From contig JACDBH010000004.1 of NCBI GenBank assembly GCA_013694995.1, forward strand, positions 1-58,827: a DNA stretch of 58,827 nt. Direction: 5' to 3'. A program made the position numbers and the translations under genes. The stretch is from Candidatus Saccharimonadota bacterium (lineage in GTDB: Bacteria; Patescibacteriota; Saccharimonadia; Saccharimonadales; JACDBH01). This document shows positions 20,250-40,776 of the stretch, in pieces; positions within the stretch are counted from its first letter, which is position 1, and each line of letters opens with the position of its first letter. Under the pieces are notes generated by a model. It was given only the letters and a program-made list of their open reading frames with translations, was not told the origin of the DNA and did no database searches.

Positions 20250-21644
20250 ATGAAACGAGCTGGAGTACTCGCGAGTGTGGTGGGCTGCTTGCTTTCAGCG
20301 TGCAGTTTACTTTTACCAGCTTTATCACTTGCAGTCTATGCCCAAGAAGCTGTAGAGCCCGAGCTACTTATCAGCCATTTCAAAATTACCAGCAGTAACG
20401 GCCAGTTTGTCGAACTGTACAATAATAGCGACACCGCTATCGACTTGGCGACTGTACAGATTGCTTATTACAATAACTATGATCTAACTAAAGCTACAAG
20501 CAGCAAGCAGATTGCACTTTCCGGCATTTTAGACCCCGGAGGTTATTTTATTCTTAACGATAGCGCGCTAACACTGTGTTATCGGATGATGCTTTCATCT
20601 CAGTCCTTAGGCTTTAGCAGTACAGCCGGCATGGTTCAGGTATTAAGGTTATCGCAGGCAAGGCCTGGAGGACCGGTGACGAATGTGCTTGTAGACAATG
20701 TAGCGTGGTCAAAAACAGCTGCTAGCGGCGCACAAATATTGCCAAGTTCAACTAATGCCTTTCTAGAGCGCCGCTGGGCGGATAATGTTCCTAAAACAAG
20801 TGGCGGCGGCAGCTGGCTCAATGTCCAGCCGAGTGCTGCCAACCCCTGTGAACTGGAGTCGGTAACTGTACAGGCGCAGACCATGCAACATGAGGATAAT
20901 ACGCTTTTGCCATCAACCCTGCCGCCTGTGCGTTTTGTGACAATAGCGCCAGCAGGTGAAAAAGCAAAAACTAATAACAATAAGGGATTGATGGCACCGC
21001 TAATAAACGAACTGCTTCCAAATCCGGCCAGCCCTCAGACTGATGCTGATGATGAATATGTTGAATTGTACAATTCAAACGAAACATCTTTTGACTTAAG
21101 CAACTTTTCTTTGGCGTTTGGCGCGGCCAATCCCCGCAAATACAATTTTCCTGAAGGTACCATATTAGCAGGCAAGTCGTTTACAACTTTTAACTCGGCT
21201 GACACAAGCCTGAGTCTCAGTAATGAACAGTCACAGGTATGGCTACTCGACCAAAACGGCGCCGTTATAAGCCAGAGCGAACCATATAGCGATCCTAAGG
21301 AAGGCCAGGCGTGGGCAATGGCCGATGGCGCCTGGACCTGGACTTTGCAGCCAACGCCCGCCCTCGAAAATGTTATTGCGCTGTCAGTTTTAGGTGATAC
21401 AACTAAGCCATCAGGTACGGTACTAAGTATAAGTAATTCCAGCCCAACTGGCTCGGCCGCAACGGTTGCCAGCGCAAACACCTCGGCCGCACAACTTAAT
21501 GATGCCGCACCGTTACATCCACTAATACTTGCTGGGGTAGGGGCTGCCGCGGTAGGATATGCTGTGTATGAGTACCGGCAAGATGTGGCAAATCGAATCT
21601 TCCAGTTCCGACGCTACCTACGCGATAGGCGAGCGCTTCGGTAA
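20250..21644 (+). CDS. Secreted, C-terminally TM-anchored protein with two lamin-tail-domain (LTD) repeats
   Basis: Signal peptide MKRAGVLASVVGCLLSACS. LTD-like cores are LLISHFKI..NGQFVELYN and LINELLPNP...DEYVELYN. There is a C-terminal TM helix plus an Arg-rich tail. Confidence 0.7.
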   Translation: MKRAGVLASVVGCLLSACSLLLPALSLAVYAQEAVEPELLISHFKITSSNGQFVELYNNSDTAIDLATVQIAYYNNYDLTKATSSKQIALSGILDPGGYFILNDSALTLCYRMMLSSQSLGFSSTAGMVQVLRLSQARPGGPVTNVLVDNVAWSKTAASGAQILPSSTNAFLERRWADNVPKTSGGGSWLNVQPSAANPCELESVTVQAQTMQHEDNTLLPSTLPPVRFVTIAPAGEKAKTNNNKGLMAPLINELLPNPASPQTDADDEYVELYNSNETSFDLSNFSLAFGAANPRKYNFPEGTILAGKSFTTFNSADTSLSLSNEQSQVWLLDQNGAVISQSEPYSDPKEGQAWAMADGAWTWTLQPTPALENVIALSVLGDTTKPSGTVLSISNSSPTGSAATVASANTSAAQLNDAAPLHPLILAGVGAAAVGYAVYEYRQDVANRIFQFRRYLRDRRALR

Positions 21645-35894: not shown

Positions 35895-36062
35895 TTAGCG
35901 GCGGTGTGCTGCGCGGGTTATTAAGCCAAGCGCAACGATCATAGCTAGACCAGCGATTAACCCGATTACTATTGGGTTACCAGTGTTAGCTAATGTAGCT
36001 ACTGCGCCTGCGCCACCACCAGCGACAGTTGCTGCACCAAGGACTTGTCCTTCTACACTCAT
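35895..36062 (-). CDS. 55-aa protein consisting essentially of a LANTG sorting-signal module
   Basis: Not in the ORF track (under 60 aa). GGAG lies 8 nt upstream of the ATG. Product is MSVEGQVLGAATVAGGGAGAVATLANTG-NPIVIGLIAGLAMIVALGLI-TRAAHRR, and a terminator follows. Confidence 0.55.
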   Translation of the reverse strand: MSVEGQVLGAATVAGGGAGAVATLANTGNPIVIGLIAGLAMIVALGLITRAAHRR

Positions 36063-36161: not shown

Positions 36162-37682
36162 TTAAAGCTCGTGGGTGATAGTAATATGAGCACCAAGAGA
36201 ATTCAGGCGTTCTGACAAGTCTTCGTAGCCGCGATTAATAGTATATACATTGCGTAGCATTGATGTGCCACGAGCAGCTAGCATACCGATCAGCAGCAGG
36301 CTAGCTGGCCTCAAGGCTGGCGGACACACAACATCGCCGTGGGTAAAAGCTGTCGGGCCGTTAATATATATACGGTGCGGGTCAGCCAGCTCGACATTCA
36401 TGCCAATTTTAGTCATTTCAGTATAATAGATAGCCCGGTTATCGAACATCCAGTCATGGATTAGAGTGCGGCCGTGAGCAACACCGCAGATTGGCACGAA
36501 GTAAGGTATATTGTCTGGGTTGAGCCCTGGCCATACGTTAGGGTGCAGTTTATCCGTTGGTGCTTTCAAATTACCATTATGTTTATTAATTATAATATCG
36601 GCCAGCTCGGTGATTCCATTGTCTGAGGGGTATGGTTCGCCGATCTTTATATTCAAGCCCATTTTTTGCAGTTTTAATAATTCCAGTCCTATCCAGTGTA
36701 TGGGCACCCTGCAGATACTAAGCTTTGAATTTGTTGTAACTGCTGCAGATATAAAGAACATTGCCTCTATAGGGTCTTCGGTCGGTGAGAAAATAATATT
36801 CTTTTTAATCTTCTGGATGCCGGTCACCTTTAAGACCGCTGAGCCAACACCTTCGATTTTTACGCCACATTTTATTAAAAAGGCGCAAAGATCTTGGACC
36901 ATGTAATCGGCACTGGCACTCTGGATTATGGTTATGCCGGGAGTTTTGGCCGCAGCCATCAAGGCGTTATTAGTAACGGTATTACCTTGTTCGTATAGCA
37001 CTATTCGGCCGGCTACTTTTTTCTTGACGGTAATGTTGTAATGGCCGGTCTTGGCAACTACATCAACGCCAAATTGTTCAAGGGCGAATAAATGTGGTGC
37101 TACGGTGCGAGTACCAAGTTTACAGCCGCCAGCATAGGGAATCATGAAACTCTTGTGTTCATGCATTAGTGATCCAAGTAGCATAAGCACGCTACGGGTT
37201 TTGCGGGCGGCCTGTTTGTTTATGCTATTTAAATCAAGAGTCTTTGGCGGTTTGATCTCAAGGTCATTACCAGGCAGCCAGCGGACTTTAATACCGATGC
37301 TTTCTAGCACTTCTATAATCCTATAGACCTCTTCAATCTTTGGAAAAGCTTTAAATGTAGTTGTACCTTGGTTCAGCAGGCTTGCGCATAGTAGTGCGAC
37401 AGCAGCATTCTTACTGCGTTTCAAAGCAATTTCGCCGTGCAGTTCATGGCCGCCTTCTATCCTCAGGTTAATAGCGCCGCTACCAAGATTTACAATCTGT
37501 TTGTTCAGTACATCGCTAATCCGGCCGAGCATGTCCATGCTCAGATTTTGACGGCCTTTTTCTATTCTATTAACAGCGGACTGGGATGTATTGAGCCGCT
37601 TAGCAAACTCAGACTGAGTTAATCCCTTTTCTTGACGGATTTGGAAAATTAAATGGCCTATCTTCTCACTGGTACTATTCAT
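36162..37682 (-). CDS. murA: XRE-family HTH domain fused to full-length UDP-GlcNAc 1-carboxyvinyltransferase (MurA)
   Basis: Residues 1-65 form an HTH_3 domain (GLTQSEFAKRLNTSQSAVNRIEKGRQ). The rest is MurA-like (HGEIALKRSKNAAVALLCASLL; active-site loop AGGCKLGTRTV with Cys). Confidence 0.8.
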   Translation of the reverse strand: MNSTSEKIGHLIFQIRQEKGLTQSEFAKRLNTSQSAVNRIEKGRQNLSMDMLGRISDVLNKQIVNLGSGAINLRIEGGHELHGEIALKRSKNAAVALLCASLLNQGTTTFKAFPKIEEVYRIIEVLESIGIKVRWLPGNDLEIKPPKTLDLNSINKQAARKTRSVLMLLGSLMHEHKSFMIPYAGGCKLGTRTVAPHLFALEQFGVDVVAKTGHYNITVKKKVAGRIVLYEQGNTVTNNALMAAAKTPGITIIQSASADYMVQDLCAFLIKCGVKIEGVGSAVLKVTGIQKIKKNIIFSPTEDPIEAMFFISAAVTTNSKLSICRVPIHWIGLELLKLQKMGLNIKIGEPYPSDNGITELADIIINKHNGNLKAPTDKLHPNVWPGLNPDNIPYFVPICGVAHGRTLIHDWMFDNRAIYYTEMTKIGMNVELADPHRIYINGPTAFTHGDVVCPPALRPASLLLIGMLAARGTSMLRNVYTINRGYEDLSERLNSLGAHITITHEL

Positions 37683-37693
37683 GTATCATTTAA

Positions 37694-37711
37694 TATATCA
37701 TATATGATATA
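37694..37711. promoter_or_regulatory. Perfect 18-bp palindrome upstream of the HTH-murA start
   Basis: tatatcata|tatgatata, 12 nt from the ATG at 37682, in the divergent gap with glyA. It is a candidate operator. Confidence 0.4.
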
Positions 37712-37821
37712 AAATGTCTATTTATTGTTTTGTATTTTTTTGCTTGCCCTACTACAATACACTCATGATTTAGCGACACGCAAGCCCATTTCCGTTACAC
37801 TACTATTAAACGAGGTTTGCT

Positions 37822-39105: not shown

Positions 39106-40131
39106 TTAGGGCAATAATTCGGGTTCGCGCTCAAGGTTGATTTGAAACAAGTTATAAACTGCATCGGTAACTTTCTGCTGATACTTGATTAGATCTGCGG
39201 TGGACTGGGCTTTCTCATTAACGAATACCAAAGCTTGGTCTTTCCAGCTGGACATGCCGGTTTCTGTGTCTTTTTTACCTTTAAACCCTGCCTGCTCAAC
39301 CAGCCAGGCGGCCGAGATCTTGTAATTATCTTTGGCTTCCCAGGCAACAACATCCTTAAACTTCTTTTTAATAATTTTGTAATGGTCTTGGCCGATAATC
39401 GGATTGGCAAAAAATGACCCGTTGTTTGCGACCTTGGCTGGGTCGGGCAGTTTTTTAGAACGTATATCAATAACGGCTGAGCGGATATCTATAAGAGTTG
39501 GCTTTGTGATTTTATGTTCTTTGAAATACTTGTCTAAGCTTTCGTAAAAAGGTGGTTTAGGCGCTGCCCTATGGAGCTTCAGAGTTACAAAGCAGATTAA
39601 AAACCGTCCGTTATCGACGGTCTTAAAGCGGGAAGTGCGGTAGCCGAAACTGCATTGGTCTTTCTCCAAGACAACGAAATCCTTAGCCATACGGTCGTAA
39701 GCTTCCAAACTTACAAATGTACCGGCAATTTCTTGGCCATAAGCACCGACATTCTGGACAGGCGTTGCTCCAACAGTGCCCGGTATAAGTGACAAGCACT
39801 CGACACCCTGCAAGTTCAGCCCTACGAACTGGTCAACAATTAAATCCCAATTTTCACCAGCACCTATTTTATAAGTTGCTGACGATGTATTTTCTGTGAT
39901 TTTTTCTAAGCCCTTGATTCTATTGACAATTACTAGGCCTTTGAAGCCTTCGTCTCGCCATATTATATTGCTGCCGATACCGATCATTCTTACAGGTAGT
40001 TGGCGTTCTTCGGCCCAAGTTACAGCTTTGTTCAGCTCATCTTTGGTTTTGACTTCAACCAATGAATCGGCTGTGCCGCCTAGGCGCATAGTTGAGTATA
40101 GCTTCAACGAAACGTCTTTAAGAATAGTCAT
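39106..40131 (-). CDS. murB: UDP-N-acetylenolpyruvoylglucosamine reductase MurB
   Basis: STMRLGGTAD, IGIGSNIIW, and a C-terminal MurB domain (SAAWLVEQAGFKG). The internal ATG at 40131 is preferred. Confidence 0.88.
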   Translation of the reverse strand: MTILKDVSLKLYSTMRLGGTADSLVEVKTKDELNKAVTWAEERQLPVRMIGIGSNIIWRDEGFKGLVIVNRIKGLEKITENTSSATYKIGAGENWDLIVDQFVGLNLQGVECLSLIPGTVGATPVQNVGAYGQEIAGTFVSLEAYDRMAKDFVVLEKDQCSFGYRTSRFKTVDNGRFLICFVTLKLHRAAPKPPFYESLDKYFKEHKITKPTLIDIRSAVIDIRSKKLPDPAKVANNGSFFANPIIGQDHYKIIKKKFKDVVAWEAKDNYKISAAWLVEQAGFKGKKDTETGMSSWKDQALVFVNEKAQSTADLIKYQQKVTDAVYNLFQINLEREPELLP

Positions 40132-40224
40132 GCTTATGTTTAGTATCACATTTTTATGGGACGGGAGCAATCTTCAGCATGCTTCCTGTTGCAGTTTTTA
40201 TTAATCAGGCATACGATATATCCA

Positions 40225-40776
40225 ATGCGAAGAGGCCATACTCCCTACCAACAATTCGGACGACGTTTGCACGATATTCGTCTGCGACTACAGGAATCGC
40301 TGCCGGAAGTGTCAGGCGCTGTCGAGCTGGACAGCGACGTGCTGGCTCGCTATGAGCGTGGTGAGGATAGGCCAAGCGAGGACGTGCTGCTGCTTCTCAT
40401 TAATCATTTTGCTATCAAAGACGAAGAAGCTGACGAATTATGGGAGCTAGCTGGCTATACTTCCGAAAACCATAACCATCACGAAGAGGCTGCAAACCTG
40501 CCCACACTAATGATGGTTCCTATGGACAACAGGGTAATTTATACCGATACAGCCCATGTCGTCATTAATAACTACGGCGTTATCATGAACTTTATGCAAA
40601 ACGGCGCCAACAACCAGCCGATGGCAGTCGCACGGGTTGGAATGAGCCTTGAGCATGCTAAAAGTGTTTTAGAAGTTCTAGCTACTACTATTGCTCAAGC
40701 CGAATCGGTCAAAACTCCGAAGCAACTTCCTGAATCGAGCAAAAGCCTCCCAAAAAACAAAAAACAGCAATTCTAA
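40225..40776 (+). CDS. XRE-type HTH protein with unknown C-terminal domain
   Basis: FGRRLHDIRLRLQESLPEVSGAVELDSDVLARYERGEDRPS. The start is taken at ATG 40225. Confidence 0.6.
   Translation: MRRGHTPYQQFGRRLHDIRLRLQESLPEVSGAVELDSDVLARYERGEDRPSEDVLLLLINHFAIKDEEADELWELAGYTSENHNHHEEAANLPTLMMVPMDNRVIYTDTAHVVINNYGVIMNFMQNGANNQPMAVARVGMSLEHAKSVLEVLATTIAQAESVKTPKQLPESSKSLPKNKKQQF

What the first reader, a model, noticed from the sequence alone, without database searches (positions are those of the whole stretch)
36162..37711. MurA fused to an N-terminal XRE helix-turn-helix domain, with a perfect palindrome upstream
**Observed.** A single 506-aa ORF joins a canonical HTH_3 domain to a complete MurA that retains the active-site Cys loop (AGGCKLGTR). 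An 18-bp perfect palindrome (tatatcatatatgatata, 37694-37711) lies 12 nt upstream of the start, in the gap shared with divergent glyA.

**Established knowledge.** MurA catalyses the first committed step of peptidoglycan synthesis and is normally a stand-alone enzyme.

**Inference.** The arrangement suggests an enzyme that binds DNA and autoregulates, or regulates glyA. That would link peptidoglycan precursor flux to transcription. Alternatively the HTH has been co-opted for another interaction.
Basis: partly seen in the sequence, partly recalled or inferred. Interest (0 to 1): 0.6.

Follow-up and report, generated by a model that had tools for sequence, protein, structure and literature searches.

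The report
Self-repressing MurA with DNA-binding head
In this Saccharibacteria genome the only copy of MurA, the enzyme that starts cell-wall synthesis, carries a DNA-binding domain that most likely switches off its own gene through a conserved palindrome on its promoter; this design is standard in the lineage, and I found no paper describing it.

Summary
ORF 36162-37682 (-) encodes 506 aa: an XRE-type HTH (aa 4-63), a roughly 10-aa flexible linker and a complete Cys-type MurA. It is the only EPSP-fold gene in a 98.75%-complete 766-kb Saccharibacteria genome that also holds murB, Mur ligases and mraY.

The fusion is not an artefact. It is kept across the whole order and in several other Patescibacteria classes.

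The 18-bp palindrome is unremarkable as a single-genome statistic, but it is conserved:
- TATAYC-N6-GRTATA lies upstream of 105 of 118 distinct fused orthologs (2 mismatches or fewer).
- It is absent upstream of 20 distant and 10 closely related unfused murA genes.
- It occurs once in this genome.
- It stays with murA when glyA is not the neighbour.

Its right arm is the extended -10 box, and the ATG follows 9-10 nt later, so the mRNA is probably leaderless. A symmetric dimer through the MurA domain is predicted (ipSAE 0.76; best control 0.01).

The best reading is a bifunctional enzyme-autorepressor. DNA binding and any ligand control remain untested. Regulation of glyA is not supported.

This scan reached the same reading before on other genomes. 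Seven literature searches found no description.

The parts
36162..37682 (-). HTH-MurA gene, 506 codons plus stop; the only MurA/EPSP-fold gene of the genome
37494..37673 (-). XRE/Cro-C1-type HTH domain (aa 4-63). Four predicted helices; the recognition helix TSQSAVNRIE has S33 Q34 S35 A36 R39 invariant in 57 diverse orthologs
37473..37493 (-). flexible linker (aa 64-70), low model confidence (pLDDT below 50 at aa 65-68)
36174..37472 (-). MurA catalytic body (aa 71-503). Structural match to solved MurA has TM-score up to 0.93. It carries a subtype-specific insertion of about 14 aa (within aa 345-391) and subtype-specific surface residues at the predicted dimer interface
37122..37124 (-). codon of catalytic Cys187 (equivalent to E. 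coli Cys115) in the loop GGCKLGTR
37694..37711 (.). 18-bp perfect inverted repeat, the candidate operator (family consensus TATAYC-N6-GRTATA); unique in the genome
37692..37697 (-). -10 hexamer TATATT preceded by TG (extended -10); its first four bases form the end of the right arm of the repeat; it ends 9 nt before the ATG
37715..37720 (-). -35-like hexamer TAGACA, 17-nt spacer; the spacer is almost wholly filled by the repeat

Best explanation
The gene encodes a bifunctional protein: an active Cys-type MurA (UDP-GlcNAc enolpyruvyl transferase) that also represses its own gene. The enzyme body forms a symmetric homodimer. This holds two flexibly tethered N-terminal XRE-type HTH domains that bind the two arms of the inverted repeat TATAYC-N6-GRTATA. 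The half-site centres are 11 bp apart, one helical turn. The repeat fills the promoter spacer and the upstream part of the extended -10 box, so a bound dimer would exclude RNA polymerase and give negative autoregulation of MurA level. The mRNA is probably leaderless, because the ATG lies 9-10 nt after the -10 box and there is no Shine-Dalgarno sequence. Shown here: the fusion, its conservation, the conserved unique repeat, its overlap with a promoter-like site, and its co-occurrence with the HTH. Inferred: DNA binding, repression rather than activation, the dimer, and leaderless translation. Speculative: that substrate or product occupancy of MurA tunes DNA binding.
For: (1) Architecture. HTH_3 plus EPSP_synthase sit in one frame. 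The AlphaFold model has pLDDT 89, with a four-helix HTH, a disordered linker and a MurA body. The body matches solved MurA structures with TM-score up to 0.93.

(2) It is the working MurA. It is the only EPSP-fold hit in a 98.75%-complete genome, which also holds MurB, five Mur-ligase-domain genes and MraY. K91, N92, C187, R192, D390, R458 and R484 are invariant.

(3) The fusion is conserved. It is full-length in 19/19 same-family genomes and in nearly all other families of the order. It is found throughout the order at 52-78% identity and in other classes of the phylum. Named relatives are Candidatus Saccharibacteria/Saccharimonadales MAGs.

(4) The operator is conserved. Among 118 distinct fused orthologs, the best match to the repeat in the 250 nt upstream has 0 mismatches in 43, 1 in 41 and 2 in 21. 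Controls with 1 mismatch or fewer: 1 in downstream flanks and 0 in mid-gene stretches. Two genomes from other classes carry the identical 18-mer.

(5) The repeat co-occurs with the HTH. None of 20 distant unfused murA genes and none of 10 closely related unfused murA genes (47-52% identity, same subtype) has it near the start. Four of the unfused genes are nested among fused ones in the tree (clade support 0.999), and one relative keeps a decayed HTH remnant with stops (L152). So the repeat was lost together with the HTH. One fused ortholog with an altered recognition helix (L171) also lacks the repeat.

(6) Specificity. The pattern occurs once in the genome. One-mismatch variants are at chance level (13 against 10 expected) and mostly intragenic.

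(7) Position. The right arm coincides with TGnTATAAT, while the left arm lies in the spacer, which is normally unconserved. Where the leader is long, the repeat stays with the -10-like box and not with the ATG.

(8) It is not a hairpin. The Y/R positions of the two arms vary independently (25 C/A combinations; Fisher p = 0.84).

(9) Dimer. The homodimer prediction gave ipSAE 0.76 against 0.01 for the best of 3 controls. That mark was reached by 20 of 30 proteins solved as pairs of one chain and by 1 of 23 solved as single chains. The runs agree in at least 90% of contacts, and partner pLDDT is at least 85. My own alignment was used, so these counts hold only roughly. The interface lies in the MurA body and uses subtype-specific invariant residues such as W411, R437 and L335, plus the insertion.

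(10) Family behaviour. The nearest solved HTH relatives are dimeric palindrome binders: HipB, R-M controller proteins, CylR2 and SinR. XRE regulators typically autoregulate as dimers on palindromes (PMC12565409).
Against: There is no experimental evidence of DNA binding, of the transcription start or of repression. The right arm would be conserved anyway as a -10 box, so only the left arm carries independent weight. The orthologs are kin and not independent samples, and the position matrix was built from sites selected by the pattern. Thirteen of 118 fused orthologs have no good repeat, although at least two of these (L019, L027) reflect my start-codon choice: their repeats were seen just before the start. 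The predicted dimer could be recalled from multi-chain MurA crystal entries. The HTH domains were not placed confidently in the interface, so the geometry on DNA is unknown. The closely related unfused enzymes keep the interface residues, so dimerisation, if real, is not specific to the regulator role. Some XRE-like HTH domains bind protein or RNA instead of DNA: MBF1/EDF1 appeared among the sequence hits.
Confidence: 0.7

Rival explanations
1. The HTH is not a DNA reader. It has been co-opted for a protein or RNA contact, as in RodZ (whose XRE-like HTH binds MreB) or MBF1/EDF1 (whose HTH binds the ribosome). On this reading the palindrome is bound by another factor or is only a promoter feature.
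For: EDF1/MBF1 are among the sequence matches of the HTH. The genome holds few regulators. No binding data exist.
Against: The recognition-helix residues S33 Q34 S35 A36 R39 are invariant. A palindrome with one-turn half-site spacing is kept at the gene's own promoter. The palindrome is lost exactly where the HTH is absent, decayed or altered. No RodZ-type HTH family (HTH_25) appeared among the Pfam hits.
Confidence: 0.1
2. The palindrome is only promoter architecture, with no operator role. For example, it could be two overlapping, oppositely oriented extended -10 boxes forming a bidirectional promoter that serves murA and the divergent gene.
For: The right arm equals TGnTATAAT. Read on the other strand, the left arm gives TGATATA, and glyA is divergent in 104 of 118 fused loci.
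Against: On the opposite strand the key sixth position (T) of the -10 hexamer is present in only 35 of 105 sites, against 84 of 105 for the murA-side box. The repeat persists where there is no divergent gene, for example in L166, where a co-directional gene with a terminator-like hairpin lies upstream. It is absent from the promoters of unfused murA genes. It occurs at no other promoter of this genome. glyA has its own conserved TACAAT block about 50 bp away.
Confidence: 0.08
3. HTH-MurA is a wider transcription factor that controls glyA or a cell-wall regulon and so couples one-carbon or cell-wall genes to MurA.
For: The site lies in the shared murA-glyA gap, and this synteny is common (104 of 118 fused loci).
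Against: The genome has a single site, with near-matches at chance level and mostly inside genes. The site follows murA when glyA is elsewhere (13 of 14 such loci have 2 mismatches or fewer; other classes). No similar repeat lies in front of murB.
Confidence: 0.07
4. The fusion is an assembly or annotation artefact: two genes joined by a sequencing error.
For: None was found.
Against: The same open frame, covering query residues 1-506 without stops, is found in well over 100 independent assemblies from many studies.
Confidence: 0.01

Closest known systems
Bifunctional enzyme-repressors ('trigger enzymes' with a fused DNA-binding domain): BirA (winged HTH plus biotin ligase), PutA (RHH plus proline dehydrogenase), NadR (HTH plus NMN adenylyltransferase). 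Named from my own knowledge, not tested here.
   Same: One polypeptide joins a pathway enzyme to an N-terminal DNA-binding domain that acts on the promoter of its own pathway or gene. The operator is a palindrome and the protein acts as a dimer.
   Different: The enzyme (MurA, first committed step of peptidoglycan synthesis) and the HTH class (XRE/Cro-C1) differ. In BirA and PutA, ligand or redox control of DNA binding is established; here it is only conjecture. The target appears to be the protein's own gene alone.
Restriction-modification controller (C) proteins such as C.Esp1396I, and small XRE repressors such as CylR2, SinR and HipB
   Same: These are the nearest solved relatives of the HTH (E 1.6e-6 to 1e-3). 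They are dimers on inverted repeats that overlap their own promoter. From my own knowledge, C-protein genes are often transcribed as leaderless mRNAs, as proposed here.
   Different: Those are proteins of 66-110 aa whose dimer contact lies in or next to the HTH domain. Here the HTH has only four helices and the predicted dimer contact lies in a 435-aa enzyme body. There is no R-M or toxin-antitoxin context.
Canonical MurA (E. coli / E. cloacae MurA; MurAA and MurAB of Firmicutes) and its known controls
   Same: It has the same fold (TM-score up to 0.93) and the same catalytic Lys, Cys, Arg and Asp residues. It has the same pathway role as the only copy beside murB-F and mraY.
   Different: Identity is only 24-31%. 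There is a roughly 14-aa insertion, and the Asp369-equivalent position is Pro/Ala. The known controls are all post-translational: UDP-MurNAc feedback and the 'dormant complex', CwlM activation, IreB/ReoM-ClpCP proteolysis, and direct inhibition by IreB (PMC12077105). None involves DNA binding by MurA itself.
MocR/GabR-type regulators (GntR HTH fused to an aminotransferase fold). Named from my own knowledge.
   Same: An HTH is fused through a linker to a dimeric enzyme-fold domain that supplies dimerisation and ligand sensing.
   Different: In MocR proteins the enzyme fold is mostly a sensor that has lost its housekeeping catalysis. Here the enzyme must still work, because it is the only MurA of the genome.

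Membership tests
MurA (UDP-N-acetylglucosamine 1-carboxyvinyltransferase) | EPSP-synthase / enolpyruvyl-transferase two-domain fold | tested here: met
   Pfam PF00275 covers the full length, E 7.1e-36. The model matches solved MurA with TM-score 0.86-0.93, ahead of NikO and AroA.
MurA (UDP-N-acetylglucosamine 1-carboxyvinyltransferase) | Score above the curated family cut-offs | tested here: inconclusive
   NCBIfam PRK09369 scores 301.3 bits against a cut-off of 297, so it is just met. The TIGR01072 equivalog scores 289.6 against a cut-off of 392.7, so it is not met. This is a divergent subtype.
MurA (UDP-N-acetylglucosamine 1-carboxyvinyltransferase) | Catalytic residues equivalent to E. coli Lys22, Asn23, Cys115 (or Asp), Arg120, Asp305, Arg371 and Arg397 | tested here: met
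   K91, N92, C187, R192, D390, R458 and R484 align to these residues and are invariant in 57 orthologs. The Asp369 equivalent is Pro/Ala in this subtype; the consequence is unknown.
MurA (UDP-N-acetylglucosamine 1-carboxyvinyltransferase) | Genomic role: needed upstream of MurB-F and MraY, with no other candidate enzyme | tested here: met
   It is the single EPSP-fold hit in a 98.75%-complete genome. MurB lies 1.4 kb away. There are five Mur-ligase-domain genes and MraY.
MurA (UDP-N-acetylglucosamine 1-carboxyvinyltransferase) | Enolpyruvyl transfer from PEP to UDP-GlcNAc | not testable with these tools
   This needs an enzyme assay or complementation of a murA depletion strain.
XRE / Cro-C1 HTH regulators (Pfam HTH_3) | HTH_3 domain above the gathering score, with a helical bundle fold | tested here: met
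   55.1 bits against a cut-off of 23. Four helices are predicted at aa 4-59. Solved relatives include HipB, C proteins, CylR2 and SinR.
XRE / Cro-C1 HTH regulators (Pfam HTH_3) | A palindromic site at the regulator's own promoter | tested here: met
   The repeat is unique in the genome, overlaps the spacer and -10 box, and is kept in 105 of 118 orthologs. It is absent where the HTH is absent.
XRE / Cro-C1 HTH regulators (Pfam HTH_3) | Dimeric, sequence-specific DNA binding | not testable with these tools
   Only a predicted homodimer is available (ipSAE 0.76 against 0.01 for the best control). No protein-DNA test is available.
Bifunctional enzyme-repressors (BirA / PutA / NadR type) | A catalytic domain and a DNA-binding domain in one polypeptide, with both conserved | tested here: met
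Bifunctional enzyme-repressors (BirA / PutA / NadR type) | DNA binding switched by the enzyme's substrate, product or catalytic state | not tested
   The only hint is that the predicted dimer interface includes R192 and residues flanking the Cys loop. No test was possible.

The most novel reading that the evidence does not exclude
HTH-MurA may be a one-protein homeostat for cell-wall precursor supply. Occupancy of the active site by UDP-GlcNAc/PEP or by the feedback ligand UDP-MurNAc would open or close the Cys loop beside the dimer interface. That would change how the two HTH heads sit, so murA transcription would be set directly by the precursor pool. This would be a minimal sensor-regulator-enzyme circuit, evolved in genomes that have almost no transcription factors. 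It would have arisen simply by grafting an HTH onto an already dimeric MurA subtype.
Probability: 0.3. Interest if true: 0.8.

Novelty: new variant of a known kind. Interest (0 to 1): 0.62.

Why it matters
MurA is the committed step of peptidoglycan synthesis and the target of fosfomycin. All the MurA controls I found described act on the protein: feedback by UDP-MurNAc, CwlM, and IreB/ReoM with ClpCP (PMC12077105). A MurA that reads DNA and controls its own promoter would be a new mode of cell-wall regulation.

It would also be a rare, clearly assignable regulator-operator pair in Saccharibacteria and related Patescibacteria. Their regulation is almost unknown and their genomes hold very few transcription factors; this genome has three HTH_3 hits.

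The pair is short, unique per genome and conserved, so it can be tested directly in vitro. It could also serve as a native regulated promoter for the emerging genetics of these episymbionts.

The natural series offers a clean case of how a trigger enzyme is born and lost. The series runs from an unfused dimer-type MurA, through HTH fusion with the operator, to secondary loss of both.

Tried and rejected
- **Read-level or RNA evidence for the frame and the transcript start.** No expression or start-site data were obtained.
- **Regulon search.** The strict pattern and variants with up to 2 mismatches were searched genome-wide. Only the murA site stands out. One-mismatch sites number 13 against 10 expected and are mostly inside genes. 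Other spacer lengths give 0-2 hits.
- **Single-genome palindrome statistics.** Perfect palindromes of 18 bp or more are not significantly enriched, with 6 against about 3.5 expected. The other one in the window (21061-21078) lies inside a 472-aa ORF. It was dismissed as chance.
- **RNA hairpin or riboswitch reading of the gap.** Rfam finds nothing at E up to 1, and there is no compensatory variation between the arms.
- **Recognition helix versus operator covariation.** The helix motif is intact in all 118 fused orthologs, including the 13 without a good repeat, so there is no general covariation. Only one outlier (L171) shows a changed helix together with a lost repeat.
- **Literature.** Seven searches were run. 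Four of them (MurA with HTH, XRE, fusion, Saccharibacteria, CPR or transcriptional regulator) returned no description of this fusion. The other three (trigger enzymes; leaderless promoters in Saccharibacteria; the MurA dormant complex) sought background and did not turn it up either.
- **Stand-alone paralog of the HTH.** None was found in the genome with the full-length query. The only other clear HTH_3 hit is on contig 7.
Full report
**1. What is in the sequence**

The minus strand carries one uninterrupted ORF at 36162-37682, 506 aa long.
- Pfam places HTH_3 at aa 14-63 (E 7.6e-15) and a full-length EPSP_synthase domain at aa 76-493 (E 7.1e-36).
- NCBIfam names it MurA. PRK09369 scores 301.3 bits, just over its cut-off of 297. 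The stricter TIGR01072 equivalog (289.6 bits against 392.7) is not reached.
- The perfect palindrome TATATCATATATGATATA lies at 37694-37711, 11 nt before the ATG. It sits in the 139-nt gap shared with divergent glyA.

**2. The enzyme part is a working, if divergent, MurA**

- It aligns over its whole length with solved MurA proteins at roughly 24-31% identity. The Lys-Asn, Gly-Gly-Cys...Arg, Asp and Arg-Gly-Tyr motifs are all in place.
- K91, N92, C187, R192, D390, R458 and R484 are invariant in 57 diverse orthologs.
- An AlphaFold model (pLDDT 89) matches MurA crystal structures with TM-scores of 0.86-0.93, ahead of NikO and AroA.
- The genome is 766 kb and 98.75% complete. This gene is its only EPSP-fold hit.
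- The genome also encodes MurB next door, five Mur-ligase-domain proteins and MraY. The fused protein must therefore supply MurA activity.

Patescibacteria hold two MurA subtypes:
- The subtype found here has the catalytic Cys, a roughly 14-aa insertion (within aa 345-391) and Pro/Ala at the Asp369-equivalent position.
- The MurA of other orders of the same class is only 26-31% identical, lacks the insertion and has Asp in place of the Cys.

**3. The fusion is a lineage trait, not an accident**

- The 120 best database hits are all 505-514 aa long and carry both HTH and EPSP Pfam domains.
- Whole-genome searches find the full-length frame in 19 of 19 genomes of the same family and in nearly every other family of the order.
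- It is present throughout the order at 52-78% identity, and in a few families of other orders.
- It is present at 46-58% identity in several other classes of the phylum.
- Named relatives are Candidatus Saccharibacteria/Saccharimonadales MAGs.
- In the HTH, the most conserved residues are those of the recognition helix: S33, Q34, S35, A36 and R39, followed by E41, G43, Q45 and N46. The helix motif is intact in all 118 distinct fused orthologs examined.

**4. The palindrome is a conserved, gene-specific site on the core promoter**

Taken alone, an 18-bp perfect palindrome is not unusual here, with six of 18 bp or more against about 3.5 expected. The degenerate pattern TATAYC-N6-GRTATA tells a different story.
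- It occurs exactly once in the genome, and one-mismatch variants are at chance level and mostly inside genes.
- Upstream of 118 distinct fused orthologs, the best match within 250 nt has 0, 1 or 2 mismatches in 43, 41 and 21 cases. In the controls, 1 downstream flank and 0 mid-gene stretches reach 1 mismatch or fewer.
- The end of the repeat mostly lies 8-14 nt before the start codon.

Aligned on the repeat, the site has the following layout.
- The right arm coincides with an extended -10 box (TGnTATAAT).
- The left arm lies in the spacer, where promoters are normally not conserved.
- The ATG follows the -10 box by 9-10 nt.

The consensus scan independently calls TAGACA-17-TATATT with an upstream TG at 37720-37692 on the minus strand. 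No Shine-Dalgarno sequence fits in the 9 nt before the ATG, so the mRNA is probably leaderless (inference).

Where the leader is long (30-190 nt), the repeat stays attached to the -10-like box and not to the ATG.

**5. The natural experiment**

- Twenty unfused murA genes of the distant subtype have no such repeat; their best matches have 3-5 mismatches.
- Ten unfused murA genes of the same subtype (47-52% identical to the enzyme part) also lack it near the start.
- Fused genes from other classes keep it. Two of them (L166, L170) carry the identical 18-mer.

A FastTree run on the enzyme part gives this order of events:
- The basal lineages of the subtype are unfused.
- A fused clade follows. 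Four unfused genes are nested inside it among fused ones (clade support 0.999).
- The deeper nodes are weakly supported.

A relative from that same family keeps a decayed HTH remnant with stop codons (L152). One fused gene whose recognition helix has changed (L171) has no repeat. Repeat and HTH thus appear together and are lost together.

**6. Alternatives for the repeat**

- *RNA or DNA hairpin.* This is unlikely. The one variable position pair varies independently between the arms (25 C/A combinations, Fisher p = 0.84), and Rfam finds nothing.
- *Bidirectional promoter.* This is unlikely. The left arm read backwards has the critical sixth-position T in only 35 of 105 sites, against 84 of 105 for the murA-side box. 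The repeat also persists where no divergent gene exists.
- *Control of glyA.* This is not supported. The repeat is present (2 mismatches or fewer) in 13 of 14 fused loci without glyA nearby. glyA also has its own conserved TACAAT block about 50 bp away.

**7. How two HTH heads could read a palindrome**

- The model shows a four-helix HTH joined to the enzyme by a low-confidence linker at aa 60-70.
- A homodimer prediction of residues 4-503 gave ipSAE 0.76, against 0.01 for the best of three controls.
- That mark was reached by 20 of 30 proteins solved as pairs of one chain and by 1 of 23 solved as single chains.
- The three runs agree in at least 90% of contacts, and partner pLDDT is at least 85.
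- My own alignment was used, so these counts hold only roughly. MurA entries with several chains exist, so the pass may partly reflect memory.
- The interface is symmetric and lies in the enzyme body. It involves aa 192-199, 228-232, 254-258, 278-283, 329-340, 376-386, 409-411 and 434-437.
- It uses the subtype-specific insertion and residues that are invariant in this subtype but different in the distant one, such as W411, R437 and Y230.
- The closely related unfused enzymes share these residues. This suggests that an HTH was grafted onto an already dimeric MurA.
- The half-site centres are 11 bp apart, which suits two heads on one face of the helix (inference).
- The interface includes R192 and neighbours of the Cys loop. 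That makes ligand-dependent DNA binding conceivable, but it is untested.

**8. Comparison with what is known**

- The nearest solved HTH relatives are HipB, restriction-modification controller proteins, CylR2 and SinR. All are dimers on inverted repeats.
- XRE regulators typically autoregulate on palindromes upstream of their own genes (PMC12565409).
- The known controls of MurA are all post-translational (PMC12077105).
- No solved MurA carries an HTH.
- Seven literature searches found no description of the fusion.
- Functionally, the closest analogues are enzyme-repressors such as BirA, PutA and NadR (my own knowledge).

I therefore class it as a new variant of a known kind.

**9. Caveats**

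- The orthologs are related, so the counts overstate independence.
- The position matrix comes from pattern-selected sites.
- Two of the orthologous promoters counted (L003 and L004, from genomes G002 and G015) come from genomes flagged as unpublished.
- Earlier notes of this scan recorded the same fusion in other genomes, and one follow-up reached the same reading. The tests reported here were made independently on this window and its relatives.

Noticed in passing
window 40156-40776 (+), facing murB at 39106-40170 (-): A second XRE-type protein (HTH_31, E 6.4e-8, plus a weak DUF3467 match) is divergently paired with murB, the next enzyme of the pathway. I saw no copy of the murA repeat in the short shared gap. 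So the first two cell-wall precursor genes each sit beside or inside an HTH gene.
   Followed up: partly
window 37753-37769 (+ strand TACAATACACTCATGAT): This block on the glyA side of the gap is conserved in many orthologous loci. It is probably the glyA -10 box plus the start of its leader. Rfam finds no known RNA family in the gap.
   Followed up: partly
L052-L071 versus the window protein (column of Cys187): The unfused MurA of other orders of the same class has Asp in place of the catalytic Cys in all 20 sampled. It also lacks the roughly 14-aa insertion. There are thus two MurA subtypes in Patescibacteria. From the known action of fosfomycin on the Cys, only the Cys subtype would be expected to be sensitive (inference).
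   Followed up: partly
L152 (G286:C18) and L171 (G193:C37): L152 carries a decayed HTH remnant with in-frame stops in front of an intact murA. L171 is fused, but its recognition helix is altered and it has no repeat upstream. Both belong to the family in which fused and unfused forms coexist.
   Followed up: partly
L156 (G367:C18), upstream of its unfused murA: A separate 225-aa XRE-type ORF lies directly upstream on the same strand, with a different recognition helix. This may be an unrelated neighbour or a two-gene counterpart of the fusion.
   Followed up: no
window 35895-36062 (-): A 55-aa Gly/Ala-rich ORF with a hydrophobic stretch and a basic tail lies just downstream of murA, with no Pfam match.
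   Followed up: no
whole genome G000: There are only three HTH_3-type hits in the 766-kb genome: the MurA fusion, one on contig 7 (552-719) and the weak one next to murB. The repertoire of regulators is very small.
   Followed up: no
window 21061-21078: A second 18-bp perfect palindrome, TTGAATTGTACAATTCAA, lies inside a 472-aa ORF. It is probably chance.
   Followed up: partly
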